Assembly (NCBI GenBank): GCA_964598025.1
Contig: CAZRAU010000002.1
Location: forward strand, 17,854 to 81,853
Direction: 5' to 3'
From: an uncultured bacterium
GTDB lineage: Bacteria > Arandabacterota > Arandabacteria > Arandabacterales > Arandabacteraceae
Length of the DNA stretch: 64,000 nucleotides
Shown piece after piece: positions 7,091 through 64,000 of this stretch (position 1 is its first letter; each line of letters starts with the position of its first letter). A program made the position numbers and the translations under genes. The notes under the pieces are model-generated. The model was not told the DNA's origin. It did not search any database and worked only from the letters and a program-made list of their open reading frames with translations.

Positions 7091-7112
7091 CCGAACAGGG
7101 GGTAACCATAGG

Positions 7113-32554: not shown

Positions 32555-32597
32555 GGTACCTCCAAGTGACTCTGAGTTGCACCACGGGTGCTGAGCG

Positions 32598-37528: not shown

Positions 37529-37529
37529 A

Positions 37530-45755: not shown

Positions 45756-45792
45756 CGGCGTGCTCTCTTCCTTGTCGGGTGAAGTCTGTGGA

Positions 45793-46959: not shown

Positions 46960-46974
46960 GTTTCGAGCCTCGCT

Positions 46975-51193: not shown

Positions 51194-51302
51194 TGTTCGC
51201 TCCGCATCCTCCAGGGGACGTCGCCGGCGTTCCGGGGTGCTTCCCCGGGTGTGTTCCCTTGCAGCCACTCAGGCTTACGGTCCGCACTATTCCAACCCTC
51301 CC

Positions 51303-52499
51303 TTAGCCGGCTCTGTTGCGGTCCAGCAGCCCGGTGTAGAAGGCCGCCAGAGTCTCGCTGTGTATGCGCCAGGAGAGCACATGCTCCGCCGCCGACCGGG
51401 CGGCAAGTGAGCAGCGTCTGCGCAACTCGGCATTGTCGGCCAGCACCAGTATCTTCTCTGCGAAATCACGCGGTGATCCGTCAGCCGGCAGGCCGACGCG
51501 GTATCGTCTTACGAAATCGCCTATGTCGCCGACATCACCGGCGACCACCGGCTTGCCCGCAGCCAGGTAGTCTCCGAATTTGTTGGGGAACCTGTATCTA
51601 TTGGTTTTATTGTCTGTGCATGGTAGGAAAGCGATGTCACCCGCCCCAAGAAAACGCGCAAACTGGGTGAGCGGGACGTTGCCGAAATGTACGATTGAAT
51701 CCTCCGGGAGGCCGAGCCGCCGTCTCTCACGGTCGACCGGCTCTCTCGATAAGCCGCTCACCAGCAGTTTCACATCGGACATCTCGCGGACGAGACCCAA
51801 CGTCGAGAGCATTGTAGTGAGGTCGGCCTCGGGTATCGAAAAGCCGGAGTAGACCAGCGCGAGACCGCCAAAGTCCAACCCCAGACGTCTCCGTGCGCGG
51901 TCCCGGGGAAAAGGCACGATGTTTTCGGTGTCGGCGCCGGCCGGGATGTACTGTATGCGTTCCTCGTCGACCCCAAGACCCGCCGCGCGCTTCTCGAGCG
52001 CCCTGCTGATCGCCGTCACCCCATCGGCGTTGATTCGGGCTGATCTTTCCAGCCGGGCTTCGACACGGTATCTCCATCGGGGAATCCCGGGGTTGCTGCC
52101 GTCCCCGAACCAGCCGCCGTCCGTCCACAGATCGTCCCAGTCGTTTACGAACAGATCCGCTCGGCCGAGAATCTTGGCCAGACGCCATGGCACATAACCG
52201 CTGAGATGATGGGAGAACAGGTGCAGCACATCGTATCGGTTCCCTACCAGGTGCCATATTCTCGCAAGGATGTCTGAGGGCAGTCTGTCGTTTCCGAACC
52301 AGCGCATGCCCCAGAACCGGGGCATTTCCAGAACCCGGATCCCATTGATCTCGCTTGTCAGTATCCTGGTTCGTGACCGCTCGGACACCTTGACCACGAC
52401 TACGTCGTGGCCCTGTCTACCGAGCCATCTGGAGAGCTCCTGACAACGGACATACGTGCCTCCATACGTAAGCGCAGAGCTCAGGAACATTATCTTCAT
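51303..52499 (-). CDS. GT4-family glycosyltransferase; ATG 52499 preferred
   Basis: MKIMFLSSALTYGGTYVRCQELSRWL. C-terminal GT4 signature. Confidence 0.8.
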   Translation of the reverse strand: MKIMFLSSALTYGGTYVRCQELSRWLGRQGHDVVVVKVSERSRTRILTSEINGIRVLEMPRFWGMRWFGNDRLPSDILARIWHLVGNRYDVLHLFSHHLSGYVPWRLAKILGRADLFVNDWDDLWTDGGWFGDGSNPGIPRWRYRVEARLERSARINADGVTAISRALEKRAAGLGVDEERIQYIPAGADTENIVPFPRDRARRRLGLDFGGLALVYSGFSIPEADLTTMLSTLGLVREMSDVKLLVSGLSREPVDRERRRLGLPEDSIVHFGNVPLTQFARFLGAGDIAFLPCTDNKTNRYRFPNKFGDYLAAGKPVVAGDVGDIGDFVRRYRVGLPADGSPRDFAEKILVLADNAELRRRCSLAARSAAEHVLSWRIHSETLAAFYTGLLDRNRAG

Positions 52500-52516
52500 C
52501 GGGTTCTTGGCACGAC

Positions 52517-53809
52517 TCACGTCTTGAGCGCCGGGTCTCTCGTCGGGATTGTCCTGGGTGGGGCGGGGAATTCCCCCAGCGACACCAGGTGTTTTGCGAC
52601 GGCCATCTTGACCAGAGTGGCCGGGATTGACTGCATGCACAGGGGTTCATCATAACGGCACGGGCCGCAGCGATCGATATGATGCTCGCCGTGACACGGG
52701 CCGCAGGGGAGGCTTGCTGAAATCACTCTGTGGCTGGGCCCCCAGGGCCCGAACCTGTGCTGGCAGCTGGAGGCGAATATGGCAACCACAGGTGTCCCAC
52801 AGGCAGCCGCGAGATGCATAAGGCCGGTGTCGCCGCCCACATAGAGACTGCACGCGCGGAGTAGAGCTCCGGCCTGCCGCAGAGTGGTTTTGCCGGTCAT
52901 GTCTATCGCAGTGGGGCCGAGGTCCGACCGCATTCTCCGTCCGAGGCGGCGATCGGCGGGGCCGCCGAAAACCACGATCCGTGCACCGTACTCGGTCTTG
53001 AGCCAGTTGCCGACCTCGACGAAGCGTTGAACCGGCCACTGCTTGAGGTGAGAATTGCCGCCGGATGGTCCGATCCCTATGAGTCGATCATCCGCTCTCA
53101 CTCCATGCTCCTTCAGGGTCGCGCGGGCATAAGCCTCATCTGCCGGCAGGGGCCAGACCTCCAGGCCGTCTTGCTTGACTGCGCCGCCAAGGCAGGTAAT
53201 CAGATCAAGGCTGTGGCGGACCTCGTGCTTAAGACCGTCATCGTTCACCACGTGGGTGTAAAGGGTGTCGTAGCCGGAATTGAGTTGCATCTTGTACTTC
53301 GAGACATGCTCCGAGAAGCCCACCCTCCAGGCAGCTCCACTGAAATAGGCCAGGAACGCGGCGTGGACATGATCCACGTCCCACCGTGGCACGATCGCCA
53401 GATCAAGCCGGCGGGGCCAGAAGCGGCGCCGGGCCAATCGCAGGCAACCTAAGAGGCTCCGGAGAGTCGCGAACCGCCCTGGCGCGCGGACGTCGTGGAC
53501 AAGCACTTCATCGACGTAGGGGCAGGGTTCCATCAGGTTGTGAGTGTCGGGGTTCACCACAAGCGTGATCCAGGCCTCTTGTAGATTCTGCCGGAGCTCT
53601 CTCAGGAAGGGAGTGGTCATCACGAGGTCGCCGATCTCGTCGAGACGGACGACCAGCACACTCTTGACCAGCGGAAGGTCCACCTTCTCCGCCCCGCGGG
53701 GCTTCCCGAACAGCCTGAAAAGCGGCTCTCCGACAGCGTATGTCAGGCGGGGCAAGGCCGTCCGGCGCAGAACACCTATGAGCGCGGATCTCACGCTTCG
53801 AGCAAGCAC
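52517..53809 (-). CDS. GT9-family glycosyltransferase (ADP-heptose:LPS heptosyltransferase-like)
   Basis: VLVVRLDEIGDLVMTTPFLRELRQ...; C-terminal GGDTGLMHLAAACGTPVVAIF. Confidence 0.8.
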   Translation of the reverse strand: MLARSVRSALIGVLRRTALPRLTYAVGEPLFRLFGKPRGAEKVDLPLVKSVLVVRLDEIGDLVMTTPFLRELRQNLQEAWITLVVNPDTHNLMEPCPYVDEVLVHDVRAPGRFATLRSLLGCLRLARRRFWPRRLDLAIVPRWDVDHVHAAFLAYFSGAAWRVGFSEHVSKYKMQLNSGYDTLYTHVVNDDGLKHEVRHSLDLITCLGGAVKQDGLEVWPLPADEAYARATLKEHGVRADDRLIGIGPSGGNSHLKQWPVQRFVEVGNWLKTEYGARIVVFGGPADRRLGRRMRSDLGPTAIDMTGKTTLRQAGALLRACSLYVGGDTGLMHLAAACGTPVVAIFASSCQHRFGPWGPSHRVISASLPCGPCHGEHHIDRCGPCRYDEPLCMQSIPATLVKMAVAKHLVSLGEFPAPPRTIPTRDPALKT

Positions 53810-54966
53810 GGCTCAGGCCTCCATGACTTGTTCCCGTCAAGCACACCACGGATCAGGTTGGCATAGGTGTCCCAGGTCCGGCGGCGAAGCACCGCGAGCC
53901 TCTCAGCCTCGTCGGCGCGGCGTTCCAGCAGGTCTTCGGCGAGTCCCTCCAGCATGCCCGGGGTCGCGTCTTTGACATAGATACCGGGCAACCCGAAGGC
54001 CTCCACCATCAGAAGCCTGGTGTCGGTGCAGACGGCGATCGATGGCACACCGATGCCGGCAAGGGCCACGGAAGCGTGCATTCTGTTGCATATCGCCAGC
54101 TTTGAACCGGATGCGATCTCGGAGTACTGGTTGGTGGTCCTCGGCCACAGCCGGGGCAGGCTCGGATCGAGGCCCTTTGCCAGATCGAACTCCCTGCCGT
54201 CATGGCACAGGAAGCCGAGTTTATGCCTGCGCTTAAGCCGCCGGAGCAGGTTCCTCACGGTGTCGGCCCACGCGTCGGCCTCGATGCCCTGTTCGCAATC
54301 GTAGTGGCCGCCCCCATACATGTAGTTGACGAGCACCATGTCGTCCCGACTACCTGCCGCGGCAGTGCCCGCATGGGGGGGATTGGTTGCCAGCGATGCC
54401 GCGCACGGGATGAAAGTGCTTTCGATTTCCATGGACCGGAGCAGGGCAAAGGCCAGTCTGTCCCGGACGGTGGTCACGCGGCAGTATGCCGTGATCGCCC
54501 TTATGTACGTTGCGTCTTCGGGATCGGTTATGGAAGTCGGTTGGCGCTCCCACGGATAGCAGGACCCCGCCGCCAGGTTTAGTACGGGTATCCGCTTCGA
54601 CAACCTCCCAATTACATGATGCCATATCGGAACGGCCCATTCGCACCCGTGACACCCGGGCCAGAATACGGGGGTACCGCACTGAACGATCATGTCGCAG
54701 GTGTCGAAACGGCTCATATTCAAACCGGCGGCGAGCCGTTCGATTGTGGTGCCTGCCAGCGTCTTGCCTCGAGGTAGAAATCGGGCGAGTCTCGCGGCTT
54801 GTACCGGGTGCCATTCCGGATAGACCGTCAGCGGGTTGTGCTTGTTCACGGGAACAAACTCGATGTTGCGCGGGGAGAAGATGCTCCGCAGGACACGGCA
54901 TATACCGTCCCGGATCAGGGTGTCCCCGATATTGGTGTCGATTGTCGTTACCAGACCTATGCGCAC
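53791..54966 (-). CDS. polysaccharide pyruvyl transferase family protein
   Basis: MRIGLVTTIDTNIGDTLIRDGICRVL N-terminal PS_pyruv_trans signature, ~390 aa. Confidence 0.75.
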   Translation of the reverse strand: MRIGLVTTIDTNIGDTLIRDGICRVLRSIFSPRNIEFVPVNKHNPLTVYPEWHPVQAARLARFLPRGKTLAGTTIERLAAGLNMSRFDTCDMIVQCGTPVFWPGCHGCEWAVPIWHHVIGRLSKRIPVLNLAAGSCYPWERQPTSITDPEDATYIRAITAYCRVTTVRDRLAFALLRSMEIESTFIPCAASLATNPPHAGTAAAGSRDDMVLVNYMYGGGHYDCEQGIEADAWADTVRNLLRRLKRRHKLGFLCHDGREFDLAKGLDPSLPRLWPRTTNQYSEIASGSKLAICNRMHASVALAGIGVPSIAVCTDTRLLMVEAFGLPGIYVKDATPGMLEGLAEDLLERRADEAERLAVLRRRTWDTYANLIRGVLDGNKSWRPEPCLLEA

Positions 54967-55983
54967 TCAAGCCTCCCCATAGCCGACATCGATTACCCGC
55001 GCATCGCGTGCCCATTTCAGTGTTCCGGCAATGCCGTCCTCCAGAGGGATCTGAAAAGGCAGATCCAGGGCCCGGAACGTTTCCTCCATCGAATAAGCCC
55101 GATGAACGCGCCGACCGGACGGGGCCATTAGATACGTGATGAAATCCATGCCGTTCCCGCGTTTGTGATACTCACGCCTGAGCAGGAGAAACAGCTCGTC
55201 CACCTTGTGCCTCGGCCTCTGCATGAGCGGTCTGGCGAGTATCCGGCCGGTGATCTCGAAGATCTTGCCCACAGTCGCATACTCGCCCCCCAGGGTTAGG
55301 GTTGCAGTCGGGACATCCTGCCCACAGGCCGCAATAATGCCCTCGGTGACATCTCGATTGTGGATTGGGTGGATATACCTGTCGGCGTAGACAGGCAGGA
55401 ATTCCAGCAACCTGTTTCTCGTAAGGATCGCCTCGGCGATATCGGTGACGAAGCTTATGTGCCCCGGACCGTAGACATTACCTATTCGCAGGATCACGGT
55501 GGGGAAGTGTCCAGCGGCCGCCCCCAGCAAAATCCTCTCAGCGGCGACCTTGCTTGCCCCATAGGCGCTCAACGGCCGGCACGGGGTGTCATGTGGGGCC
55601 GGGACGGCGGCCGCGGCCACCGGGCCGACGGCCTCGATACTGCTTGCGTATACGAATCTCCCGGCGGCCGCCAGCTTGGCCAGCTCCAGGACATTGCCGG
55701 TTCCGGCAACATTGGTTGTGTATGTCTCCCGTGCGTCATAGTAGTCGAGAGAAGCCGCAAGGTGGATGACGGCATCGAGCGGTCTGCACATGTCCGCGAT
55801 TGATACGATCGTGCCCGGATCCGTCACGTCCGCCTCAAGGACGTCCAGGTTCGCCGAGTCCGGCCGGGACAGCTTGCTCTTGTCGCGGGTCACGAGGATG
55901 ACATGCCACGAATCCCTGAGCAGCCTGCCCACCAGGTGCCGGCCGATGAAACCGGTGCCGCCCGTAACCAGCGCACGCATCAC
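54967..55983 (-). CDS. NAD-dependent epimerase/dehydratase family protein
   Basis: MMRALVTGGTGFIGRHLVGRLL...YGASKVAAE. Confidence 0.8.
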   Translation of the reverse strand: MMRALVTGGTGFIGRHLVGRLLRDSWHVILVTRDKSKLSRPDSANLDVLEADVTDPGTIVSIADMCRPLDAVIHLAASLDYYDARETYTTNVAGTGNVLELAKLAAAGRFVYASSIEAVGPVAAAAVPAPHDTPCRPLSAYGASKVAAERILLGAAAGHFPTVILRIGNVYGPGHISFVTDIAEAILTRNRLLEFLPVYADRYIHPIHNRDVTEGIIAACGQDVPTATLTLGGEYATVGKIFEITGRILARPLMQRPRHKVDELFLLLRREYHKRGNGMDFITYLMAPSGRRVHRAYSMEETFRALDLPFQIPLEDGIAGTLKWARDARVIDVGYGEA

Positions 55984-57530
55984 AGGTCGCCTCCCGCCGA
56001 ACCGGAGGCGACGGTTGCTGTGTCACCCGCGGGACATTCATCGGCCCTATCGATTCGGGGGGAAACACCGCACATCGGGGCTTTCACCCTCCCGTCTCCA
56101 ATCGCCAGATTCTGTACGATGAACCTGTGCTTCCCCCTCGTGGTTCTTGCAATGTCGTCAACGATCCGGATCTCCAGGTCTATGCCGGGCCCCATCTTGC
56201 CGAGCATGGCTTCCCTTATGCGCCGGATGCGGTCGGTCCCACAGGAGGGGCTCTTGATGATGTCCATACGCACCATCCCGGGGGTATCCTGGTGGAATTG
56301 GTAGGTCCGGACGTCGTCGAATGTGTTGGAATGAACATTGAGAGCCGAGTTCGGGATGAGTCTCCCGTCACGGGCGACAAGATATTCCTGGGTTCGGCCC
56401 GAGATCATCTTTACAAGCGGATAGTTGCGGCCGCACTTGGTGCAGCCGGAGGCGCCCACCACCCCCCGATCGCCGGTCCTGTATCTTATGAAGGGGGTGG
56501 CAAGATTGTGGAAACCGGTAAGGACTATCTCGCCTTCGCCACCTTGCTCGGTGACAGGCCTGCCGCTGTCGTCGAGAACCTCCAGTATGCCGGCCTGTGG
56601 GAAGAAGTGGTACTCATCGCTGTGCTCGCAGCCCGAAGCGAACCCGGCGTACTCGGCCATCCCATACCAGGATAGGATCCGGCACCGGAAGACATCGGCG
56701 ATGTAGCGACGCTGCGATTCATGCATGACCTCGGATGAGGTGATGACCGCCCGGACGGTCCCAATCGGCGTACCATAGATACGGCCCAGCTGTGCAAGCA
56801 GTGTGACAGTCGATGGAAAGCCGAGTACGAATTCGGGCCGGAAAGACTTCACGGCCTCTGCGGCGGCCCTGAAACCTCGGCGCCCTAGTGCGGAGATCGA
56901 CAGGAATAGGGTCTTGGACTCGGGCGCATACTGGAAAGGGTCGCCGTCGAAAGAGGCCGTGACATCCAACACGCGGGTGCCGGGCTTGTAGCCTGCGCGG
57001 CCCCACATCATGAGTCTGTAAGCAGTTGCCACCTCGTCGTTGTATGTCCGGACGTGATAGAATCCCGTCGGCTTCCCGGTTGTTCCCCCCGACATGACAT
57101 ACTGCAGGCGCTCCTCGGGGATATCGCCCGCGATGTATTCGGACGGCAGATGCCGGAGCGCATCCTTCGTCAAACAGGGTAATCGGCGGATCGAGTCGAC
57201 CGATTCTATGTCATTGGAGCCGATGCCAAGCAGGGTCAGAGCCGTCCTGTATGCCGGGACATTGACGCTTACATGGCGGATGAGCTCCACGAGCCGGGAA
57301 CGCTGATACTCGAGCATCTGCTCGCGGCTCCACATTTCCGACTCCTTCAGGAATGCATACGTGGTTCGCAGAGTCTCACCCGCCCGCCACCAGTAGGGCA
57401 GCCTCCTGTAGATCTGTCTCAGGGGTTGTTTCAGTCCCGGCGGGAGCAGCCGGCGCGCCGATCGTCCCAGCGCACATTTCAGGTGTGGTGCGATGGGACG
57501 TGCGACCGGACTTGAATTGCCGTTGCTCAT
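55980..57530 (-). CDS. CapK-like / coenzyme F390 synthetase family adenylate-forming enzyme (phenylacetate-CoA ligase superfamily); ATG 57530 preferred
   Basis: AMP-binding P-loop-like SGGTTGKPTGFYH. Family-typical length and order of motifs. ATGA overlaps on both sides. Confidence 0.7.
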   Translation of the reverse strand: MSNGNSSPVARPIAPHLKCALGRSARRLLPPGLKQPLRQIYRRLPYWWRAGETLRTTYAFLKESEMWSREQMLEYQRSRLVELIRHVSVNVPAYRTALTLLGIGSNDIESVDSIRRLPCLTKDALRHLPSEYIAGDIPEERLQYVMSGGTTGKPTGFYHVRTYNDEVATAYRLMMWGRAGYKPGTRVLDVTASFDGDPFQYAPESKTLFLSISALGRRGFRAAAEAVKSFRPEFVLGFPSTVTLLAQLGRIYGTPIGTVRAVITSSEVMHESQRRYIADVFRCRILSWYGMAEYAGFASGCEHSDEYHFFPQAGILEVLDDSGRPVTEQGGEGEIVLTGFHNLATPFIRYRTGDRGVVGASGCTKCGRNYPLVKMISGRTQEYLVARDGRLIPNSALNVHSNTFDDVRTYQFHQDTPGMVRMDIIKSPSCGTDRIRRIREAMLGKMGPGIDLEIRIVDDIARTTRGKHRFIVQNLAIGDGRVKAPMCGVSPRIDRADECPAGDTATVASGSAGGDL

Positions 57531-58357
57531 GGTTTCCGGTTCCGGTCCGACTTGGGGAACCCTACTGCGCAGATCGAGTAGTCGAACTCCCCGAGCAGCC
57601 TCAGACACGCCGCATACGTGATTCTGAGAAGTTTCTTCTTGATCGAACCGCAGCCCCAATTCATGTGCACATGACACATCCAGCAGCGGCCCCGGTACCC
57701 GGAACGGGCGAGCAAGCGCTCAAGGGCCTGACGTGTCCAGCGGGTCAGATGATGGGGTGGGTAGTCGAGGCGGCGGTTGAACTCCGGAACCTTCAAAGAT
57801 CTCTGTGGGGTTGGGACGCTCAGGCACAGAGTGGCTTCGGAAAACCGCCGCCTGATGCTCTTGACAAGGCCCGTGGGGTCGGGGAAGCGTACAAGGCTCT
57901 CCAGCATGACGACCGCCCTGGGCTCGGGCCAGTTTCCGGGATAAGCCTCCACCGATCCGGTGGCCACCGCAAATCCGTGGCTTCGAAGCGCCTCGACGTG
58001 TGCGGGCAGGGGATCCATTCCCATGGGACTCAGGCCGGTGGATTTCAAACCCATGAGAAAGCGCCCTGATTCAAAGCAGATCTCGAGCACCGGCGCGCGG
58101 GGGGGCAGATTGCGCCTGAGCCAGCGCAGGATGGCACGTTCGTTCGCGGTGAGCGACAGCCCCGCCCCGTTGCCCTCTCCGTGTGCCGGCATCGCCGGCG
58201 CTGCCTCGGAGAAATCCTGAAAGACCGGTTGGGTGGTGTCGAGCCTGCTGATGTGTTGGAGTCCGCATTCCGGACAGAGATGAAAAACCTCCGACCCGAG
58301 ATCCTCCACTATAGGCCTGTTGGATGTGGACCCGCAGGCAGGGCAGGAGCTCAGCAT
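57527..58357 (-). CDS. SAM-dependent methyltransferase with N-terminal zinc ribbon; ATG 58357 preferred
   Basis: CPACGS...CPECGL zinc ribbon. VLEICFESGRF. Class I methyltransferase-like core. Confidence 0.7.
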   Translation of the reverse strand: MLSSCPACGSTSNRPIVEDLGSEVFHLCPECGLQHISRLDTTQPVFQDFSEAAPAMPAHGEGNGAGLSLTANERAILRWLRRNLPPRAPVLEICFESGRFLMGLKSTGLSPMGMDPLPAHVEALRSHGFAVATGSVEAYPGNWPEPRAVVMLESLVRFPDPTGLVKSIRRRFSEATLCLSVPTPQRSLKVPEFNRRLDYPPHHLTRWTRQALERLLARSGYRGRCWMCHVHMNWGCGSIKKKLLRITYAACLRLLGEFDYSICAVGFPKSDRNRKP

Positions 58358-59718
58358 CGGGGTGCCTTGATCTGGGCGAACCGGCGGCCGTGCAGCCGCC
58401 GGTTCGCAGCCGGACGTCGGTGGGGTTGGGTATTCAAGTGCCGGACATGCCACGGCAGTCGAGGGCATACGAGTCCGAGCCTGTTATCTGATGTTGTGCC
58501 GTCGAGGTCGCCCGCGATTTCGACGTCGAAGGACACGACGCTATCCATGAAAAGTATCGATTCCACCTTCGGGATGTCGATCCCGAGCGAAATCGAGTAC
58601 CGGCCTCTGTTTAGAAAACCTCCGGGGATCGTGCATCTGCTCACATAGGCTCCGGGCGCGCAGTCTGCCTCGGCCCGGCACGCGCCGTCGCGGTCGGTGG
58701 AGCTGAGCACGATCGTGCCGTCGGAGGCCAGGAGTCGGTACCCGACGCGTAAGCCGGGTACGGGCCCGGCCAGCTCATACTCGATTTCGACAAAGCAATC
58801 ATGTCGCGTATCGATGGCGCCGCGCCCGGAACCCTCGCAGTCCTTGACGCGGACAGCGCGGAGGATGAAGCTGCCGTTTCCCGGGGCCTCGGCTGGGTCG
58901 GTCACGGCGTATTCGGCGCTCATGCCGCCTTTGGACGAGAGATACCTGGTGATCACCTCTCCGGTCTCGCCGGACATCTCGAGGCGGCCGTCGTCGAGCC
59001 ATATAGACCGAGTGCAGAGCTTGGCCACCGCACCCATGTTGTGGCTGACAAATACCACGGTTCGGCCTTCCCTGGCGACGTCGCCCATCTTCCCCAGGCA
59101 CTTCCTCTGGAACACGGCGTCACCGACTGCAAGCACCTCGTCCACAAGCAGGATCTCCGGCTCCAGGTGGGCGGCCACGGCGAATCCGAGCCTCACCCAC
59201 ATGCCGCTGGAGTATCGCTTAACCGGTGTGTCCACGAATCTCTCAATGCCGGCGAAGCCGACGATCCGGTCGAATTTGCTCCGCACGTCGTTGCGGCTCA
59301 TTCCAAGGATGGTGCCGCTGAGATATATGTTCTCCCGCCCGGTCAGCTCCGGATGAAAGCCCGTGCCGACTTCGAGGAGGCTGCCGACACGGCCCCTTAT
59401 GGTAGCCCTGCCTTCGGTCGGCTCCGTGATTCTGGAGAGCACCTTCAGCAACGTGCTCTTGCCGGCACCATTGCTCCCTATGAGTCCCAGGGTCTCGCCC
59501 TCTTCTACGCCGAATGAGACCTCCCGGAGCGCCCAGACGTCCACGGACGGGGGGACCCCGTCCACCCGCGCCGGTTTCCTCAGGAGCCGGAGGGGCGCCC
59601 TCATGGCCGTCGCGACCCTCTCGCGCAACGCCCCGTATTGGTACATTCCGCTTCCGACATACTGGCCGAGCCGGTAACGCTTGCCGATGTTTGCGGCTTC
59701 TATTGCCAATGGTTTCAT
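58351..59718 (-). CDS. wzt: ABC transporter ATP-binding protein of the Wzt/TagH type with C-terminal glycan-binding extension
   Basis: Walker A GSNGAGKST. ABC signature YSSGMWVRLGFAVA. Walker B ILLVDEVLAVGD. About 170 extra C-terminal residues as in O-antigen-binding Wzt proteins. Confidence 0.88.
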   Translation of the reverse strand: MKPLAIEAANIGKRYRLGQYVGSGMYQYGALRERVATAMRAPLRLLRKPARVDGVPPSVDVWALREVSFGVEEGETLGLIGSNGAGKSTLLKVLSRITEPTEGRATIRGRVGSLLEVGTGFHPELTGRENIYLSGTILGMSRNDVRSKFDRIVGFAGIERFVDTPVKRYSSGMWVRLGFAVAAHLEPEILLVDEVLAVGDAVFQRKCLGKMGDVAREGRTVVFVSHNMGAVAKLCTRSIWLDDGRLEMSGETGEVITRYLSSKGGMSAEYAVTDPAEAPGNGSFILRAVRVKDCEGSGRGAIDTRHDCFVEIEYELAGPVPGLRVGYRLLASDGTIVLSSTDRDGACRAEADCAPGAYVSRCTIPGGFLNRGRYSISLGIDIPKVESILFMDSVVSFDVEIAGDLDGTTSDNRLGLVCPRLPWHVRHLNTQPHRRPAANRRLHGRRFAQIKAPRC

Positions 59719-59816
59719 GATCCGTATTCCCGGTTACTGATTGTGGTGCTCAAGACCAGAGTCTCCTCACCGGTTGAGTCTCCGGATCGCCGGTGTCCGA
59801 ATAGATGGAGGAACCG

Positions 59817-60659
59817 TCAGTCTGAATACCCCAGTCGCTCCAGGAGATCACCGGTGATCTCCCTGAAGTAGGCGGTCACCGCCCGGTCGAAGTGGTTATG
59901 CCAATCACCTGCCGTGCCCATCCTGTAGTGGGACGCCGGGTCGGATTGACCGACGCTCCGCCCCCCCGAGTTGACCTCGAAGGTGTGTGCGCGGTACAAT
60001 ACGTCGAACTCGTCTGCGGGCATCCTCACATCCAGAAACTCGAGAATGCCGTGCAGGAATGCCGACTGATCTGCTGCCAGGTCCTCATATCGGAAGAGTT
60101 TCACGCGGGCTCCGGCCGCGTTCATCCATGACAACTGGGCATGGAAGAGCCCCCGGTCCCACAAGGTGTCAATGCCGTACCTGAGCCCCGCATGGAGATC
60201 AAGGCATGCAAGGTCTTTTCGGAACTTCGGGATCAGACCGGTCGGTCGATGAGAATACCTGGCCGAGAAATACCATGAAGTCACTATGTCACGAGGGTCC
60301 CTCAACACGAAGAATGCCTTGTAGGCGTTCGGTTTAGGGAGATTCACAAAGGTCGAGTAGTCTATGTACAGGTTCGTGCCTATGGTCTTCCCGGGGAGGG
60401 GTTCGTCTATCCGGGCATCCTGGACGCGCTCCGGATCCTGAGTGAAAGGCAATGGCCGAAGCCCCGAGTAACAATAGAACAGCGGATCTGAGAATACATC
60501 CTTCAGCATCCGGCTGGCCGTCCGCTGGGTACAACAGTGGTACGCGTTGTCATAGGAAACGTGGTGCACGACCCTGGGGGATCCGTATGTCTCCCTGATG
60601 CGACGTGGTACCAGGTCCGTGACACGCTTTTTCAGGCGCTCGAGGGTCAAAGGTCCCAC
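59817..60659 (-). CDS. sulfotransferase family protein
   Basis: PAPS-binding 3'-PB-like region KAFFVLRDPRDIVTSWYFS plus further sulfotransferase-family spacing. Sits between wzt and wzm. Confidence 0.7.
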   Translation of the reverse strand: MGPLTLERLKKRVTDLVPRRIRETYGSPRVVHHVSYDNAYHCCTQRTASRMLKDVFSDPLFYCYSGLRPLPFTQDPERVQDARIDEPLPGKTIGTNLYIDYSTFVNLPKPNAYKAFFVLRDPRDIVTSWYFSARYSHRPTGLIPKFRKDLACLDLHAGLRYGIDTLWDRGLFHAQLSWMNAAGARVKLFRYEDLAADQSAFLHGILEFLDVRMPADEFDVLYRAHTFEVNSGGRSVGQSDPASHYRMGTAGDWHNHFDRAVTAYFREITGDLLERLGYSD

Positions 60660-60839
60660 AGCGCCCCCCCGAAAACCGGGACTCCAGGCTGCCCAAGAAC
60701 ACCCATCTGCTTCATTATGCTCGACTCCCGGCCCTGCGGCGTACGCTGAAGTACGCCTCGCTCCCTGAGCCTTCGCAAGCCTCGCATCTGGCTGTTCTTG
60801 ACCAGCCTGATACAGCCCGCTTTTTCAACAGCCCCACTC

Positions 60840-61685
60840 CTACACTATGTCGGCGAACCATCGCTCCATCCTCCTGAAGTAAACCAGTCCACACGCGAAC
60901 AAGACGGCGGCGGCCAGAGTAGACACGCCCAGCTCGGTCCATCTGAAGGGAGTGCCCAGGATGGCGGAGCGGTAGCCGCCGACGATGCCGGCCATCGGGT
61001 TTACATGCGCCACCCACTTCCACGGACCGTTGAGAATTCCGACCGGATATATTACCGGAGTCAGAAACATCCAGATCTGTATAAGGAAGGGAAGCACGTA
61101 GCGGAAATCCCTGTATGCCACATTCAGCGCACTGATGAGCATTCCGACGCCGAGCGCGGCAATGACCACGGCCATCACCAGGGGCACCACCATCAGTACG
61201 TTCAGGGTCGGCACGATGCCGTAGAAGATCATCAAGACGATGAGGATCCCGAACGATACCGCGAAATCGACGAGGCAAGCCCCGACTGCGGCTATGGGGA
61301 TGATGATTCTTGAAAAGTAGACCTTTCTTATCAGGTTGGCACTCCCCACCACGCTTTCGCCGCTTCTGGTGACGGCGCCGGCGAAGAACTCCCATGGCAG
61401 GAGCCCCGCATAGACAAACACCGGGTACGGGAAACCCTCCGAGCCGATCTTCGCCAGGCGTCCGAAGACCAGGCTGAAAACCAGCATCTTGGTCGCAGGC
61501 TGAAGCACGGCCCACAAGAAGCCGATGGCGGTCTGTTTGTATCGCACCTTGACATCGCGCCACGTCAGGAAATAGAGCAGCTCGCGGTACTGCCAGATCT
61601 CGCGCAGCCGCAGCGAGAGCCAACCGCGCGACGGCTCGACCACAGTGACCGGAGTTGCCTCGCAGGCCTGGCCCACGTGATTCAT
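60840..61685 (-). CDS. wzm: ABC-2 type polysaccharide export permease
   Basis: LREIWQYRELLYFLTWRDVKVRYKQTAIGFLWAVLQP ABC-2 signature, six hydrophobic segments. ATG 61685 overlaps the asnB-like stop (ATGA). Confidence 0.88.
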   Translation of the reverse strand: MNHVGQACEATPVTVVEPSRGWLSLRLREIWQYRELLYFLTWRDVKVRYKQTAIGFLWAVLQPATKMLVFSLVFGRLAKIGSEGFPYPVFVYAGLLPWEFFAGAVTRSGESVVGSANLIRKVYFSRIIIPIAAVGACLVDFAVSFGILIVLMIFYGIVPTLNVLMVVPLVMAVVIAALGVGMLISALNVAYRDFRYVLPFLIQIWMFLTPVIYPVGILNGPWKWVAHVNPMAGIVGGYRSAILGTPFRWTELGVSTLAAAVLFACGLVYFRRMERWFADIV

Positions 61686-63559
61686 AGAGCGTCCTTCAGC
61701 CAGTGGTTCAGGACGACCAGACTCCAGACCCGTGACCAATGCACTCCGCCTTCTCCAAAACCGCGCAGGAGCGATCGAACATAAGGCTTGTTAAGATGCG
61801 GACTCTCGAGGATGGGCTCAGTGAACTCTCTCAGGCTCTTCCTGAGCCATGTATCGAACGGGAACACGAAGCCCTGCTTTCGCCGGTGGACTACCTCGCG
61901 CGGCAACCCGTTTTCCAGGGCCTTCGCCAGGAGGGGTTTCGGCCCCGCGCCGCCGACCTTATGACGGTCGGGGATGCGCGCAAGCAGTTCCACCAGGACA
62001 TGGTCGACGAAGGGCGACCGAACCTCCAGGGAGTGCGCCATACTGAAGGCGTCCGTGTCCCTCAGGAGCTGATTCGCCATATAGCGGGTGGTCTCCAGGA
62101 ACCCGACCTGGCCCTGTATGGTCTTGTGGGGCAGGCCTTCCGGAGCCGCGGTTCCAATATGTCCTGTCGCCTCGCGAGCAAAGGCCGGGTCCAGCAAACC
62201 TCTGATCTGGTCTACCGTGAATATCTGCCTGTAGGACCTGTAGATGTCCGGGACGGATCCGCCCCCGGAAAGGATGGAAGCCAGCTTGGCGGTTCGCGAC
62301 CGCCCGCGGGTATTGAGAAGTCTGCCGGCCAGGAGTCTGCCCATAGGTAGACACGAAACGGCGCGGTGCAATCTGTGGAGGTAGGGTATCCACCTGAACG
62401 ATGGATATCCCCAGAAGATCTCGTCGCCACCAAGGCCCGACAGCGCCACCTTCAGCCCCGCACGGGCTGCCGCGAGCGCAACGAAGTAGGTGTTGACACC
62501 GTCAACGGTCGGCTGGTCCGCGACATCGAGTATTCGCTCCATGTGATCCCGGAGATCGGCGCCGCTCACGGTGACCTCAACATGGTCTGTGGCGTAGGTG
62601 TCGGCGACTCGCCTGGCGAAGCCGCTCTCGTCATAGGCTGTGCCCGGGAAGCCGACGGATACGGTTCTTATAGGGTGGTGGTCCAACTGCCTCATGACAG
62701 CCACGATGGAACTCGAGTCGATGCCGCCGCTCAGGAAGACACCAATCGGGACATCGCTTATCAGGTGACATTTCACGGTGTCCAATAGACATGAATGAAC
62801 GCGGTCGATAGCCTCGGATTCAGTCATGTCCCAGAGAGAGTTCTCGCGACATGCCTTGCTCAGATCGTAGTAGCGGTGCTCCGCCGGACCACTCTGGTCC
62901 ACAACCAGGTAGTGGCCGGGTTTGAGGGCGGAGATCCCGCGGTAAACGGTGCCGGGAGGCGGCACATGGCCGAAGTGCAGGTAAGAGCCGACCGCCGGGG
63001 GGTCGATTTCCGGTTCGACCATCCCGGACGCAAGGATGGCCCGGATCTCCGATGCGAAGACGAAACCGGCGCTGGAATGAGCATAGTAGAGCGGTTTCTG
63101 GCCGAACCGGTCGCGGGCCAGCAAGAGACGCCGGCGCGGCGGTGCGGTGCCCCGGCAGTCATAGACAGCGAAACTGAACATGCCTCGAAGGCGGGTCAGC
63201 AAACCCTCGATGCCCCACTGCTCGTAACCATGGATAAGCACCTCGGTGTCCGTGTTGCTCTTGAAGACATGGCCGCATGCTTGAAGCTCGGGGCGGAGGT
63301 CGGGAAAGTTGTATATCTCACCGTTGTAGGTTGTCCAGATCCGCCCGGTCTCGTTGGGCATGGGCTGGTGGCCGGCGGCCGATGGATCTATGATTGACAG
63401 CCTCGTATGTCCCAGGCCGACGGGTCCGTGGCCGGATGTGAACACACCGGAATCATCGGGGCCGCGCCGGTCCATGACGGCCGTCATCCGCCCGAGCGCT
63501 GCCGTAATGGCCCCCGCGGCGACTTCGCCGTTCCGGTATATTCCGGCTACTCCACACAT
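61682..63559 (-). CDS. asparagine synthase (glutamine-hydrolysing) family amidotransferase
   Basis: N-terminal MCGVAGIY (Cys2 nucleophile). SGGIDSS PP-loop. ~625 aa. Confidence 0.88.
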   Translation of the reverse strand: MCGVAGIYRNGEVAAGAITAALGRMTAVMDRRGPDDSGVFTSGHGPVGLGHTRLSIIDPSAAGHQPMPNETGRIWTTYNGEIYNFPDLRPELQACGHVFKSNTDTEVLIHGYEQWGIEGLLTRLRGMFSFAVYDCRGTAPPRRRLLLARDRFGQKPLYYAHSSAGFVFASEIRAILASGMVEPEIDPPAVGSYLHFGHVPPPGTVYRGISALKPGHYLVVDQSGPAEHRYYDLSKACRENSLWDMTESEAIDRVHSCLLDTVKCHLISDVPIGVFLSGGIDSSSIVAVMRQLDHHPIRTVSVGFPGTAYDESGFARRVADTYATDHVEVTVSGADLRDHMERILDVADQPTVDGVNTYFVALAAARAGLKVALSGLGGDEIFWGYPSFRWIPYLHRLHRAVSCLPMGRLLAGRLLNTRGRSRTAKLASILSGGGSVPDIYRSYRQIFTVDQIRGLLDPAFAREATGHIGTAAPEGLPHKTIQGQVGFLETTRYMANQLLRDTDAFSMAHSLEVRSPFVDHVLVELLARIPDRHKVGGAGPKPLLAKALENGLPREVVHRRKQGFVFPFDTWLRKSLREFTEPILESPHLNKPYVRSLLRGFGEGGVHWSRVWSLVVLNHWLKDAL

Positions 63560-63664: not shown

Positions 63665-64000
63665 CTAAAACCTGTCAACTTCCTCATCCGAGAGGTGCAC
63701 GGCTACGGAGCGGCCAAGCAGTTCCACCGATATCACCAGTTTCCGCTTGTTCGGCCGGGTCGCCAGTATATGGCCGATCGCGCCTTTGAGTGGGCCGGAG
63801 ACCACGATGACCTCATCGCCCTCCTCGAAATACGGATGCGGCTCGAGCACCCGGTCCGACGACAGCAGGATTATCAGGCTCTGCATCTCGCTTGGTGCGA
63901 CCTGCTCGGGGCCGTTCCCGTTGCCCAGAATTCTTGCGAGTCCGGGGGTTTCAAGCATCCGGGCGAAGCGCTGCGGGAACGGTTCGGTCTGGACGAAGAG
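63665..64000 (-). CDS. NusG-family transcription antiterminator paralog (RfaH/UpxY/LoaP-like); C-terminal KOW domain present, N-terminus beyond the window edge
   Basis: KOW signature FEEGDEVIVVSGPLKGAIGHILATRPNKRKLVISVELLGRSVAVHL. Reading frame stays open to nt 64000. Sits at the 5' end of the 32-kb minus-strand glycan operon. Confidence 0.7.
   Translation of the reverse strand, partial: LFVQTEPFPQRFARMLETPGLARILGNGNGPEQVAPSEMQSLIILLSSDRVLEPHPYFEEGDEVIVVSGPLKGAIGHILATRPNKRKLVISVELLGRSVAVHLSDEEVDRF

What the first reader, a model, noticed from the sequence alone, without database searches (positions are those of the whole stretch)
57527..61685. ABC-transporter-dependent pathway with CBM-bearing Wzt flanked by sulfotransferase and Zn-ribbon methyltransferases
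- Wzt extension: the Wzt ATPase carries the C-terminal extension characteristic of transporters that recognise a chain-terminating modification on the glycan.
- Candidate terminators: the genes wedged around wzm/wzt are a sulfotransferase-family protein (RDPRDIVTSWY) and a zinc-ribbon SAM methyltransferase, with a second similar methyltransferase at 46975. These are candidates for the terminator activity that sets chain length.
- Novelty: methyl or phosphate caps are known. A sulfate cap, or a sulfated repeat unit, would be unusual for a bacterial O-antigen-type polymer.
Basis: partly seen in the sequence, partly recalled or inferred. Interest (0 to 1): 0.6.

Follow-up and report, generated by a model that had tools for sequence, protein, structure and literature searches.

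The report
Glycan export operon with added sulfotransferase
This is an ordinary ABC-transporter (Wzm/Wzt) surface-polysaccharide operon from an uncultured bacterium that picked up a genuine-looking sulfotransferase between its two transporter genes; comparison with relatives suggests the sulfate is an optional decoration, not the "finished chain" signal the transporter reads.

Summary
On the minus strand lie wzm (60840-61685), a Sulfotransfer_1 gene (59817-60659), wzt with a C-terminal domain (58351-59718) and a zinc-ribbon methyltransferase-fold gene (57527-58357). They sit inside a ~32 kb glycan operon.

- The sulfotransferase keeps all three PAPS-binding motifs and models as a SULT fold.
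- The Wzt extension models as a beta-sandwich whose top 16 PDB matches are all Wzt carbohydrate-binding domains.

The "sulfate cap" idea is not supported, because sulfotransferase and binding domain do not travel together:
- Loci whose binding domain is 50-60% identical to this one have wzm directly abutting wzt, with no sulfotransferase. Nearly all keep wzt-MT1-CapK-SDR-pyruvyltransferase-GT9.
- The closest outside sulfotransferase (55% identical) sits beside a Wzt whose binding domain shows no detectable similarity to this one.

The sulfotransferase is therefore a clade-specific insertion. It most likely sulfates the polymer in the cytoplasm before export. A methyl cap, or another cap made by the conserved module, is the likelier export signal. 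Two caveats: MT1 has a non-canonical SAM motif, and the canonical catalytic His of the sulfotransferase is Asn here. No PAPS-synthesis genes are in the window. Sulfated bacterial O-polysaccharides and ABC-exported capsules are already known. Verdict: new member of a known kind, modest interest.

The parts
63665..63958 (-). C-terminal part of a NusG-paralogue antiterminator (LoaP/UpxY-like). The gene runs off the window end. It marks the head of the operon.
   Evidence: NCBIfam LoaP 1.1e-11, NusG 1.3e-10, UpxY 3e-9, all below cut-off because the gene is truncated. A NusG-domain gene sits at the same position in L001 and L002.
61682..63559 (-). Asparagine-synthase-family glutamine amidotransferase (AsnB-like). 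Its stop overlaps the wzm start (ATGA).
   Evidence: PF00733 1e-78, GATase_7 1.3e-41. TIGR01536 scores 427.8 bits against a cut-off of 267.
60840..61685 (-). wzm, the ABC-2 permease of the glycan exporter (281 aa from the ATG at 61685).
   Evidence: PF01061 6.8e-23. Wzm/KpsM-type NCBIfam hits are below cut-off. 69-74% identical to Wzm of L001 and L002.
59817..60659 (-). Soluble SULT-fold sulfotransferase (280 aa). It is flanked by 180-bp and 98-bp intergenic gaps and is a clade-specific insertion between wzm and wzt.
   Evidence: PF00685 55.5 bits. Conserved motifs HCCTQ[K/R]TAS, RDPRDxxxS and RxGxxGDW. AF2 pLDDT 92.5 with SULT top hits. The gene is absent from loci with the same Wzt binding-domain subfamily.
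58351..59718 (-). wzt (455 aa): nucleotide-binding domain at about aa 1-260, carbohydrate-binding domain at about aa 275-425 (about 58444-58896), then a ~30-aa Arg/Pro-rich tail.
   Evidence: ABC_tran 1e-21 and Wzt_C 7.3e-6. The AF2 model of aa 258-455 is all-beta with pLDDT 85.5. The Foldseek top 16 are Wzt binding domains, TM to target 0.58-0.73 for the isolated-domain entries.
57527..58357 (-). MT1: zinc ribbon plus class-I methyltransferase fold (276 aa). It overlaps the wzt stop by 7 nt. SAM motif I is non-canonical.
   Evidence: PF13489 36 bits. P0221 is 100% identical and 276 aa. The family alignment shows conserved CxxC..CxxC and 'VLE[LIV]C[CF]E[SAV]GRF' in place of GxGxG. It follows wzt in 7 loci that lack the sulfotransferase.
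55980..57530 (-). CapK / phenylacetate-CoA-ligase-like adenylate-forming enzyme. The start is probably the ATG at 57530, overlapping the MT1 stop.
   Evidence: PF00501 2.1e-9. PaaK/F390-synthetase-type NCBIfam hits are below cut-off. Homologues carry CapK_C.
54967..55983 (-). SDR-family NAD-dependent epimerase/reductase of the conserved module.
   Evidence: PF01370 6.1e-37. Conserved after the CapK-like gene in L084, L087 and L092.
53791..54966 (-). Polysaccharide pyruvyl-transferase-family protein.
   Evidence: PF04230 6.9e-7, 29.9 bits against a cut-off of 25.3. 50-60% identical homologues in L084, L085, L087 and L092.
52517..53809 (-). GT9 (heptosyltransferase-family) glycosyltransferase. 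Last gene of the conserved module.
   Evidence: PF01075 1.8e-31. Heptosyltransferase NCBIfam hits are below cut-off.
46975..48252 (-). MT2: zinc ribbon plus canonical SAM methyltransferase. The likely start is at 48039 or 47976.
   Evidence: PF13489 9.2e-24, canonical 'LLDIGCGEGLF', CPVC...CPEC. Two copies lie in L086, the close relative that lacks both MT1 and the sulfotransferase.
31376..52640 (-). Rest of the glycan operon: eight GT4, one GT2, a 709-aa Wzy_C/O-antigen-ligase-like membrane protein (41849-43978), a NodU-like carbamoyltransferase (37530-39422), Gmd (36416-37660), an Fcl-like gene (35529-36500), SDR enzymes, a small polyprenyl-phosphate sugar-phosphate transferase (32598-33296) and a geranylgeranyl-reductase-family gene (31376-32554).
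   Evidence: Pfam and NCBIfam scans. Gmd TIGR01472 scores 476 bits against a cut-off of 415. Wzy_C is weak, at 25.9 bits against a cut-off of 31.7.

Best explanation
The region is the export-and-finishing core of an ABC-transporter-dependent surface-glycan operon (O-antigen or EPS-like) in an uncultured bacterium. The nearest named relative is a Candidatus Eisenbacteria MAG.

How it most likely works:
1. The polymer is probably rich in mannose or 6-deoxyhexose, since Gmd, an Fcl-like gene and many GT4 enzymes are present. This is inferred.
2. It is built on a polyprenyl carrier at the cytoplasmic face. This is inferred from the pathway type.
3. It is then handed to Wzm/Wzt. The Wzt C-terminal beta-sandwich binds a feature of the finished chain. 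The fold is shown; the ligand is inferred.
4. That feature is most likely made by genes that travel with this binding-domain subfamily. These are the zinc-ribbon methyltransferases (MT1 and/or MT2, giving a methyl cap as in A. aeolicus, E. coli O8 and probably P. aeruginosa CPA) or another enzyme of the MT1-CapK-SDR-pyruvyltransferase-GT9 module.
5. The sulfotransferase is a PAPS-dependent, soluble, cytoplasmic enzyme acquired by one subclade and inserted between wzm and wzt. It most likely O-sulfates sugar residues of the lipid-linked polymer before export. It acts as an accessory decoration that changes surface charge or antigenicity, not as the export signal.
For: **Gene identities.**

**Binding-domain fold.** pLDDT is 85.5. 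The top 16 PDB matches are all Wzt carbohydrate-binding domains, including the A. aeolicus domain bound to 3-O-methyl-mannose (8dky, E=3.9e-7, rmsd 2.2 Å).

**Sulfotransferase.**
- The family alignment has Q45 in 35/36 sequences and K/R46 in 36/36 (K in 32, R in 4).
- R120 is present in 35/36. D121, P122, R123, D124, S128, R246 and W253 are invariant in all 36.
- A profile-to-PDB search aligns the 3'-PB and RKGxxGDW motifs to SULT2A1.
- The model has pLDDT 92.5 with SULT top hits at probability 1.0.
- There is no transmembrane segment; the N-terminal helix is charged.

**Double dissociation.**
- Loci with binding domains 51-60% identical lack the sulfotransferase. L084, L085, L087, L089, L090, L091 and L092 keep wzt-MT1. 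The longer of these contigs (L084, L085, L087, L092) run on through CapK, SDR, PyrT and GT9; L091 ends within CapK. L086 instead has two MT2 copies.
- Loci with binding domains below 47% identity have no MT1.
- The sulfotransferase-bearing loci form a nested subclade of the MT1-linked Wzt clade.
- The nearest outside sulfotransferase (P0007, 55% identical) lies in a Wzm-Wzt cluster whose binding domain has no detectable similarity to this one.
- Only 6 of 59 long genome loci with this sulfotransferase family have a Wzm.

**Other.** Overlapping stop/start codons link wzt, MT1 and the CapK-like gene, whereas the sulfotransferase has 180-bp and 98-bp gaps on either side. Methyl caps read by Wzt binding domains are established (PMC9445017).
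Against: - MT1, the most constant partner of this binding-domain subfamily, lacks the GxGxG SAM loop. 'CCESG' is conserved in all 21 family members, so its methyltransferase activity is not assured.
- The canonical catalytic His column of SULTs is Asn96 here. It is His in only 20 of 36 family members, so the catalytic base is unknown.
- No PAPS-synthesis genes are in the 64 kb window.
- Sulfotransferases of this family recur next to Wzt(Wzt_C) and next to methyltransferases in several unrelated lineages: L010, L021, L033, L034, L063 and L111. A role at the chain terminus in some systems therefore cannot be excluded.
- Binding domains at 50-60% identity could still have shifted specificity.
- Nothing here is biochemical.
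Confidence: 0.55

Rival explanations
1. One reading: the sulfotransferase adds a sulfate to the non-reducing terminal sugar. This stops elongation, and the sulfated end is what the Wzt binding domain recognises. Sulfate would play the role that methyl-phosphate plays in E. coli O9a.
For: - The sulfotransferase is wedged between wzm and wzt, and that position is conserved at 63-69% identity in relatives.
- The PAPS-binding motifs are intact.
- Family members sit immediately beside Wzt proteins with Wzt_C in several distant lineages.
- The enzyme is cytoplasmic, as a terminator must be.
Against: - The same binding-domain subfamily (51-60% identity) works in at least 8 loci with no sulfotransferase.
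- L086, nested inside the sulfotransferase-bearing clade, lacks the gene.
- The closest sulfotransferase relative is paired with an unrelated binding-domain sequence.
- No consistent basic-residue gain separates the binding domains of the sulfotransferase clade. This rests on inspection of the A3 sequences.
- In A. salmonicida a sulfotransferase-domain ORF lies next to wzt, yet no sulfate is found in the O-antigen (PMC4483657).
Confidence: 0.1
2. The cap read by this binding-domain subfamily is neither methyl nor sulfate. It is a group installed by the conserved CapK-like / SDR / pyruvyl-transferase-like / GT9 genes, such as a terminal pyruvate ketal, an acyl or aminoacyl substituent, or a unique terminal sugar. 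MT1 would be a non-catalytic or repurposed methyltransferase-fold partner. The sulfotransferase remains an accessory decorator.
For: - The five-gene module follows wzt in loci of this binding-domain subfamily across phyla, including Longimicrobiaceae and Eisenbacteria. An NC10-labelled protein (P0111) belongs to the same Wzt subfamily, but its locus was not examined.
- MT1 lacks the canonical SAM loop.
- A unique-sugar cap has precedent: Kdo in K. pneumoniae O12 / R. terrigena (PMC9445017).
Against: - L086 has a binding domain 60% identical but lacks the whole module, having two MT2-type methyltransferases instead. This points to methylation as the common denominator.
- MT1 keeps the fold, the conserved Asp of motif II and a Pfam score above threshold.
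Confidence: 0.22
3. The sulfotransferase does not act on this glycan at all. It is inactive, it acts on a lipid, small molecule or protein, or PAPS is not available. The polymer would then be unsulfated, as reported for Aeromonas salmonicida.
For: - The canonical catalytic His is replaced by Asn96.
- No PAPS genes are in the window.
- Most family members are not in Wzm/Wzt clusters, and only 18 of 59 loci show a detectable glycosyltransferase nearby.
- The A. salmonicida precedent (PMC4483657).
Against: - Strong purifying selection acts on all PAPS-binding motifs across 36 diverse sequences.
- The operon position is conserved in at least 3 relatives.
- The His column varies across the whole family, so the family probably uses another base. 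H41, H137 and H244 are near-invariant.
- The tblastn-based glycosyltransferase detection has low sensitivity.
Confidence: 0.12

Closest known systems
Aquifex aeolicus WzmWzt with a binding domain that recognises a 3-O-methyl-Man/Rha cap (PDB 8dky, 6o14, 7k2t; PMC9445017)
   Same: - Wzm plus a Wzt carrying a C-terminal jelly-roll binding domain. It is the best structural match to the model (E=3.9e-7, TM to target 0.70, rmsd 2.2 Å).
- The glycan is probably Man/6-deoxyhexose based (Gmd present).
- Methyltransferases sit in the cluster.
   Different: - The binding-domain sequences are only about 16% identical, and no sequence-level hit was found.
- The ligand here is unknown.
- The operon additionally holds a sulfotransferase, a carbamoyltransferase, a pyruvyltransferase-like gene and a CapK-like gene.
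E. coli O9a/O8 system: WbdD terminator (kinase plus methyltransferase, or methyltransferase alone) and Wzt binding domain (PDB 2r5o; PMC3482155)
   Same: ABC-transporter-dependent pathway in which a terminal modification stops elongation and is read by the Wzt C-terminal domain. Fold match (ranks 9 and 12).
   Different: - No WbdD-like protein: MT1 and MT2 are 276 aa and about 330-350 aa, with a zinc ribbon, no kinase domain and no long coiled-coil.
- The sulfotransferase has no counterpart in that system.
Pseudomonas aeruginosa CPA locus (gmd/rmd, wzm, wzt, GT4 rhamnosyltransferases, small methyltransferases PA5457/PA5459; PMC3560663)
   Same: - Gmd-dependent 6-deoxyhexose polymer, GT4 enzymes and Wzm/Wzt.
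- Small stand-alone methyltransferases that lack WbdD's membrane and glycosyltransferase-interaction domains. In CPA they are jointly required for polymer production.
   Different: - Homology of MT1/MT2 to PA5457/PA5459 was not tested here.
- CPA has no sulfotransferase.
Sulfated, ABC-exported capsules of Vibrio sp. KMM 8419 and Cobetia marina KMM 1449; sulfated O-polysaccharides of Cobetia spp. (PMC11641403, PMC11766843)
   Same: Cytoplasmic sulfotransferase genes are embedded in ABC-transporter-dependent polysaccharide clusters. Sulfate is on repeat-unit sugars (for example Rha2S).
   Different: - Those use Kps-type (KpsMT/ED) transporters without a Wzt binding domain.
- Their clusters carry cysDN/cysC PAPS genes, described there as a hallmark. 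None are in this window.
Aeromonas salmonicida wbsalmo cluster ORF19 (sulfotransferase-domain protein next to wzt; PMC4483657)
   Same: A sulfotransferase-domain ORF lies immediately beside wzt in an ABC-2-dependent O-antigen cluster.
   Different: - It is 216 aa. Homology to this family was not tested.
- No sulfate was found in that O-antigen, and its function is unknown.
Sinorhizobium meliloti LpsS, an LPS sulfotransferase (Cronan and Keating 2004, cited in PMC12445080)
   Same: A bacterial PAPS-type sulfotransferase that modifies LPS.
   Different: LpsS is annotated as Stf0 family, not the Sulfotransfer_1 subfamily found here, and it is not located in a wzm/wzt operon.

Membership tests
ABC-transporter-dependent glycan pathway with cap-reading Wzt (E. 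coli O9a / A. aeolicus type) | Adjacent ABC-2 permease (Wzm) and ATPase (Wzt) | tested here: met
   PF01061 6.8e-23 and PF00005 1e-21. The two genes are separated only by the inserted sulfotransferase. They are directly adjacent in relatives L084-L092.
ABC-transporter-dependent glycan pathway with cap-reading Wzt (E. coli O9a / A. aeolicus type) | C-terminal jelly-roll carbohydrate-binding domain on Wzt | tested here: met
   Wzt_C E=7.3e-6, at 26.5 bits below the 30.4-bit cut-off. The AF2 model is all-beta with pLDDT 85.5. The Foldseek top 16 PDB hits are Wzt binding domains.
ABC-transporter-dependent glycan pathway with cap-reading Wzt (E. coli O9a / A. aeolicus type) | A dedicated enzyme that modifies the non-reducing terminus and stops elongation | tested here: inconclusive
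   Candidates exist: MT1, MT2, the sulfotransferase, the pyruvyltransferase-like gene and GT9. Co-occurrence favours the zinc-ribbon methyltransferases and their module over the sulfotransferase. No activity data are available.
ABC-transporter-dependent glycan pathway with cap-reading Wzt (E. coli O9a / A. aeolicus type) | The binding domain binds the capped terminus, and export depends on the cap | not testable with these tools
   Requires binding assays and genetics.
ABC-transporter-dependent glycan pathway with cap-reading Wzt (E. coli O9a / A. aeolicus type) | Cytoplasmic assembly on a polyprenyl carrier (initiating phosphoglycosyl transferase plus processive or multiple GTs, no Wzx) | tested here: met
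   Bac_transf 3.6e-58, eight GT4, one GT2 and one GT9. No Polysacc_synt/Wzx hit was found among the ORFs scanned.
ABC-transporter-dependent glycan pathway with cap-reading Wzt (E. coli O9a / A. aeolicus type) | Ligation to lipid A-core by WaaL (which would make it an O-antigen) | tested here: inconclusive
   The 709-aa membrane protein gives only a weak Wzy_C hit, 25.9 bits against a cut-off of 31.7. Relatives carry a Wzz/tyrosine-kinase co-polymerase and an SLBB export protein upstream, which is more typical of EPS or capsule.
PAPS-dependent sulfotransferase (Sulfotransfer_1 / SULT fold) | Family profile match above threshold, and SULT fold | tested here: met
   PF00685 55.5 bits against a cut-off of 22. 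pLDDT 92.5. The top 50 PDB matches are SULT-fold sulfotransferases (including the SULT-like retinol dehydratase) at probability 1.0, with TM about 0.5 and 14-18% identity.
PAPS-dependent sulfotransferase (Sulfotransfer_1 / SULT fold) | 5'-phosphosulfate-binding loop (PKSGTT-type strand-loop-helix with Lys) | tested here: met
   'HCCTQ[K/R]TAS' is conserved: K in 32 of 36 sequences and R in 4, including the window. It lies at the junction of strand 38-43 and helix 46-56 in the model. Equivalence to the canonical loop is inferred from position and architecture, because the sequence profile did not align this part.
PAPS-dependent sulfotransferase (Sulfotransfer_1 / SULT fold) | 3'-phosphate-binding motif (RxPxDxxxS) and C-terminal RKGxxGDW motif | tested here: met
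   R120 is present in 35/36; D121, P122, R123, D124, S128, R246 and W253 are invariant in all 36. These align to SULT2A1 'MRNPRDVLVSGYF' and 'RKGVSGDWKNHF'.
PAPS-dependent sulfotransferase (Sulfotransfer_1 / SULT fold) | Catalytic His of cytosolic SULTs (His108 in SULT1 numbering) | tested here: not met
   The column that should correspond (profile position about 95; one search aligns profile 92-269 to SULT1D1 105-279) is Asn96 in the window. It is His in only 20 of 36 family members. The correspondence is inferred from coordinates, not from a printed alignment. H41, H137 and H244 are near-invariant alternatives.
PAPS-dependent sulfotransferase (Sulfotransfer_1 / SULT fold) | PAPS supply (cysDN/cysC, cysQ) in the genome or cluster | not testable with these tools
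   None were found among the ORFs scanned across the 64 kb window. The rest of the genome is not available: exact look-ups failed.
Class I SAM-dependent methyltransferase (MT1) | Profile match and Gly-rich SAM-binding motif I (E/DxGxGxG) | tested here: inconclusive
   PF13489 is above threshold at 36.5 bits against 27. Motif I, however, is 'LE[LIV]C[CF]E[SAV]G' in all 21 family members, whereas MT2 and outgroups have 'LDIGCGxG'. The motif II Asp (D115) is invariant.
WbdD-type chain terminator | Kinase and/or methyltransferase domain fused to a long coiled-coil and membrane-anchoring region that sets chain length | tested here: not met
   MT1 (276 aa) and MT2 have only a zinc ribbon plus a methyltransferase domain. 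No kinase or coiled-coil family hit was found.

The most novel reading that the evidence does not exclude
In this clade the sulfate ester is part of the terminal epitope that the Wzt binding domain reads. This could be sulfate alone or sulfate on an O-methylated end sugar. It would make sulfate a fourth chemical class of export and chain-length cap, after methyl, (methyl)phosphate and Kdo. The binding domains of the sulfotransferase-bearing subclade would have shifted specificity despite 50-60% identity to sulfotransferase-less relatives.

A second, less radical novelty is also not excluded: the cross-phylum module MT1 (non-canonical SAM loop)-CapK-SDR-pyruvyltransferase-GT9 may build a previously undescribed cap.
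Probability: 0.1. Interest if true: 0.7.

Novelty: new member of a known kind. Interest (0 to 1): 0.3.

Why it matters
If the polymer is sulfated, it would extend sulfated Wzm/Wzt-exported surface glycans to an uncultured, poorly known lineage related to Candidatus Eisenbacteria. It would also supply a compact, soluble glycan sulfotransferase family with a distinctive HCCTQKTAS loop and at least 130 genomic members across cyanobacteria, actinomycetes, Planctomycetota and Chloroflexota. Glycan sulfotransferases are of biotechnological interest.

The comparative result is useful for cap prediction. Which enzyme a Wzt binding-domain subfamily co-travels with appears to be a better guide to the export signal than which enzyme sits closest to wzt in one genome. 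The conserved MT1-CapK-SDR-PyrT-GT9 module is a concrete target for finding new cap chemistries.

As it stands, the locus is an ordinary member of a well-understood pathway.

Tried and rejected
- **Exact-sequence look-ups** of the window's sulfotransferase and Wzt, and of P0010 and P0101, found no contig. The source genome and its PAPS genes could therefore not be examined.
- **Sequence searches of the Wzt C-domain against the PDB**, as a single sequence and as an 18-sequence profile, found nothing at E up to 10. Only fold comparison linked it to Wzt binding domains. Ligand-pocket residues could not be mapped onto the A. aeolicus structure.
- **Signs of recent insertion around the sulfotransferase** were not convincing. 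GC is 0.579 and GC3 is 0.712, low but within the operon's range. There are no flanking inverted repeats and only one 14-nt chance-level direct repeat. No Rfam hit was found. Promoter- and terminator-like sites were at or below shuffle expectation.
- **A dedicated 'sulfotransferase-associated' binding-domain subfamily** was considered for the wzm-wzt-ST loci (L021, L033, L034). They group loosely near the base of the Wzt tree, but on long branches. Two are from the same class, and the tree is a quick NJ tree. This was not pursued.
- **A 'methyl-sulfate' cap** by analogy with O9a methyl-phosphate was considered because the sulfotransferase and methyltransferases recur together. I rejected it as chemically implausible, since sulfate diesters are alkylating agents. 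This rests on my own knowledge.
- **NCBIfam** gave no named family for the sulfotransferase, MT1, the pyruvyltransferase-like protein or the Wzy_C protein.

Full report
**1. What is there**

The second half of the window (31376-63958) is one long minus-strand polysaccharide operon. The first half encodes sensor kinases, a KaiC homologue and a CheB-CheR fusion.

The finding's span holds four genes.
- wzm: 60840-61685, PF01061 6.8e-23.
- A sulfotransferase: 59817-60659, PF00685 at 55.5 bits, containing the quoted RDPRDIVTSWY.
- wzt: 58351-59718, ABC_tran 1e-21 plus a Wzt_C match at aa 280-401. That match has E=7.3e-6 and sits just under Pfam's cut-off.
- A zinc-ribbon methyltransferase-fold gene, MT1. 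Its real start is the ATG at 58357, because the database gene call is 276 aa and 100% identical.

Genes flanking the span:
- Upstream are an AsnB-like amidotransferase and the tail of a NusG/LoaP-like antiterminator.
- Downstream follow a CapK-like adenylating enzyme, an SDR, a pyruvyl-transferase-family protein and a GT9.
- Further downstream are many GT4 enzymes and one GT2, then a second zinc-ribbon methyltransferase (MT2, 46975-48252) and a Wzy_C-like membrane protein.
- The operon ends with a carbamoyltransferase, Gmd, an Fcl-like gene and a small phosphoglycosyl transferase.

**2.

*PAPS-binding residues.*
- I aligned 36 family members at 35-68% identity.
- The alignment shows a conserved N-terminal 'HCCTQ[K/R]TAS', with Arg in the window and Lys in 32 of 36.
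- 'RDPRDxxxS' is essentially invariant (R120 in 35/36), and so is 'RxGxxGDW' (R246 and W253 in 36/36).
- A profile search of the PDB aligns the last two motifs to the 3'-phosphate-binding and RKGxxGDW motifs of SULT2A1.
- The AlphaFold model (pLDDT 92.5) places the first motif at a strand-loop-helix junction. All of its best PDB matches are SULT-fold sulfotransferases.
- So the enzyme looks PAPS-dependent.
- One caveat: the column expected to hold the catalytic His of cytosolic SULTs is Asn96 here, and His in only 20 of 36 members. This correspondence is inferred from the coordinates.

*The Wzt extension.*
- A model of aa 258-455 (pLDDT 85.5) is all-beta.
- Its 16 best PDB matches are exclusively Wzt carbohydrate-binding domains: A. 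aeolicus, E. coli O9a and R. terrigena O12.

Neither test refutes the finding.

**3. Does the sulfotransferase make the cap?**

Comparative genomics says probably not.

- Wzt proteins with Wzt_C are extremely common; the search returned 8000 hits at its cap.
- Splitting Wzt into its nucleotide-binding and carbohydrate-binding domains defines a binding-domain subfamily at least 50% identical to this one.
- I fetched loci for that subfamily from assemblies and metagenomes.
- In L084, L085 (Longimicrobiaceae), L087, L089, L090, L091 and L092, wzm directly abuts wzt. No sulfotransferase is present.
- In those loci wzt is followed by MT1. Where the contig is long enough, the CapK-like gene, the SDR, the pyruvyltransferase and GT9 follow as well.
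- Loci with binding domains below 47% identity have no MT1.
- L086 is as close to the window as the Eisenbacteria MAG is. It lacks both the sulfotransferase and the MT1 module, and joins wzt directly to GT4b-GT2-MT2-MT2'-GT4c-d-e-Wzy_C.
- In an NJ tree of Wzt, the sulfotransferase-bearing loci form one subclade nested inside the MT1-linked clade. L086 is sister to the Eisenbacteria locus.

The converse also holds.
- The sulfotransferase family is widespread: 132 genomic loci, including cyanobacteria, Actinoplanes/Micromonospora, Planctomycetota and Chloroflexota.
- Only 6 of 59 long loci contain a Wzm.
- The closest sulfotransferase outside the clade (P0007, 55% identical) lies in a Wzm-Wzt(Wzt_C)-x-ST-MT-MT cluster. 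That Wzt's binding domain has no detectable sequence similarity to the window's.

Sulfotransferase and binding domain therefore do not co-evolve. The common partner of this binding-domain subfamily is a zinc-ribbon methyltransferase (MT1 or MT2).

Gene spacing agrees with this. wzt, MT1 and the CapK-like gene overlap at their stop/start codons, whereas the sulfotransferase has 180-bp and 98-bp gaps on either side. Composition does not mark it as recently foreign.

**4. Most likely mechanism**

1. A mannose/6-deoxyhexose-rich polymer is assembled on a polyprenyl carrier in the cytoplasm. This is inferred from Gmd, the Fcl-like gene, the GT4 enzymes and the phosphoglycosyl transferase.
2. The polymer is modified in the cytoplasm. 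The candidate enzymes are the methyltransferases, the sulfotransferase, the pyruvyl- and carbamoyl-transferases and the amidotransferase. Such modification must precede ABC export, which follows from established knowledge of the pathway.
3. A terminal modification is bound by the Wzt binding domain. The fold is shown; the ligand is inferred. A methyl group is the best guess by analogy with A. aeolicus and E. coli O8 (PMC9445017, PMC3482155).
4. The sulfotransferase adds sulfate as a clade-specific decoration.

Reservations:
- MT1's SAM loop is 'CCESG' in all 21 family members instead of GxGxG. It may not be a conventional methyltransferase, so a cap made by the rest of the conserved module is a serious rival.
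- No PAPS genes are in the window.
- Sulfotransferases of this family recur beside Wzt and methyltransferases in several lineages, so a terminal role somewhere in nature is not excluded.

**5. Comparison with what is known**

- The system works like the cap-dependent Wzm/Wzt pathways. It meets their testable defining features: transporter pair, binding-domain fold and cytoplasmic assembly.
- The terminator enzyme and the ligand remain unproven.
- It has no WbdD-type terminator.
- Whether the product is an O-antigen or an EPS/capsule is open. The Wzy_C hit is weak. Relatives carry a Wzz/tyrosine-kinase co-polymerase and an SLBB export protein upstream.
- Sulfated bacterial glycans are uncommon but documented: sulfated O-polysaccharides in Cobetia, sulfated ABC-exported capsules in Vibrio and Cobetia with PAPS genes in the cluster, and LPS sulfation by LpsS (PMC11766843, PMC11641403, PMC12445080).
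- A sulfotransferase-domain ORF beside wzt exists in A. salmonicida without detectable sulfate in the O-antigen (PMC4483657).
- Sulfated EPS has been proposed, but not yet demonstrated, for an Actinoplanes missouriensis gene cluster that encodes two sulfotransferases (PMC13390465).

**6. Verdict**

- The locus is a new member of a known kind. It has two small open questions: the role of the inserted sulfotransferase, and the nature of the conserved MT1-CapK-SDR-PyrT-GT9 module.
- Interest is about 0.3.
- The sulfate-cap reading keeps about 10% probability and would be notable if true.

Noticed in passing
window 57527-58357; alignment A4: All 21 members of the MT1 family replace the SAM-binding GxGxG loop with a conserved 'C[CF]E[SAV]G', and 'VLEHxxDP' with 'SLVRFPDP'. 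The paralogous MT2 and outgroups keep the canonical motifs. MT1 may be a repurposed or atypical methyltransferase fold.
   Followed up: partly
L084 7101-15111; L085 7091-15350; L087; L091; L092; window 52517-61685: A module Wzm-Wzt(one binding-domain subfamily)-MT1-CapK-like-SDR-pyruvyltransferase-like-GT9 is conserved across distant lineages (Longimicrobiaceae, Eisenbacteria-like; an NC10-labelled Wzt, P0111, belongs to the same subfamily). Its product is unknown and it could build an undescribed cap or adaptor.
   Followed up: partly
L086 1-10420 versus window 41849-61685: In a close relative, wzt is joined directly to GT4b-GT2-MT2-MT2'-GT4c-GT4d-GT4e-Wzy_C. The sulfotransferase and the MT1-to-Epi2 block are missing. 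The window's operon is therefore a mosaic of exchangeable blocks.
   Followed up: yes
window 31376-32554: A geranylgeranyl-reductase-family flavoprotein (TIGR02032, 171 bits, above cut-off) is the last gene of the glycan operon, next to the phosphoglycosyl transferase. It may saturate the polyprenyl carrier.
   Followed up: no
window 63665-63958: A truncated NusG-paralogue (LoaP/UpxY-like antiterminator) sits at the head of the operon. Full-length copies occupy the same position in L001 and L002, preceded there by a Wzz/tyrosine-kinase and an SLBB export gene. This hints at capsule/EPS-type outer-membrane export alongside the ABC transporter.
   Followed up: partly
window 58351-58440 (Wzt aa ~426-455): Wzt in the window's closest relatives (P0103, P0104) shares a ~30-residue Arg/Pro-rich C-terminal tail beyond the binding domain. 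The tail is absent from other members of the subfamily. It overlaps the MT1 start region.
   Followed up: no
L021 6769-17269: A deltaproteobacterial MAG has a duplicated ArsR-Wzm-Wzt(Wzt_C) unit. A 743-aa radical-SAM::pyruvyl-transferase fusion lies immediately after its wzt-adjacent sulfotransferase.
   Followed up: no
L033 14112-15794; L111 10879-11619; L062 2595-4285: Several sulfotransferase-bearing clusters contain a second sulfotransferase-like gene: a 560-aa protein with C-terminal Sulfotransfer_1, a faint Sulfotransfer_2 hit, and a tandem pair. Methyltransferases sit directly beside the sulfotransferase (also in L112). The glycans may be both methylated and multiply sulfated.
   Followed up: no
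window 7056-8648 and 11468-14869: A KaiC homologue (PF06745, 5e-110) and a CheB-CheR-PAS fusion (1133 aa) lie among at least seven hybrid sensor kinases and response regulators, upstream of and divergent from the glycan operon.
   Followed up: no
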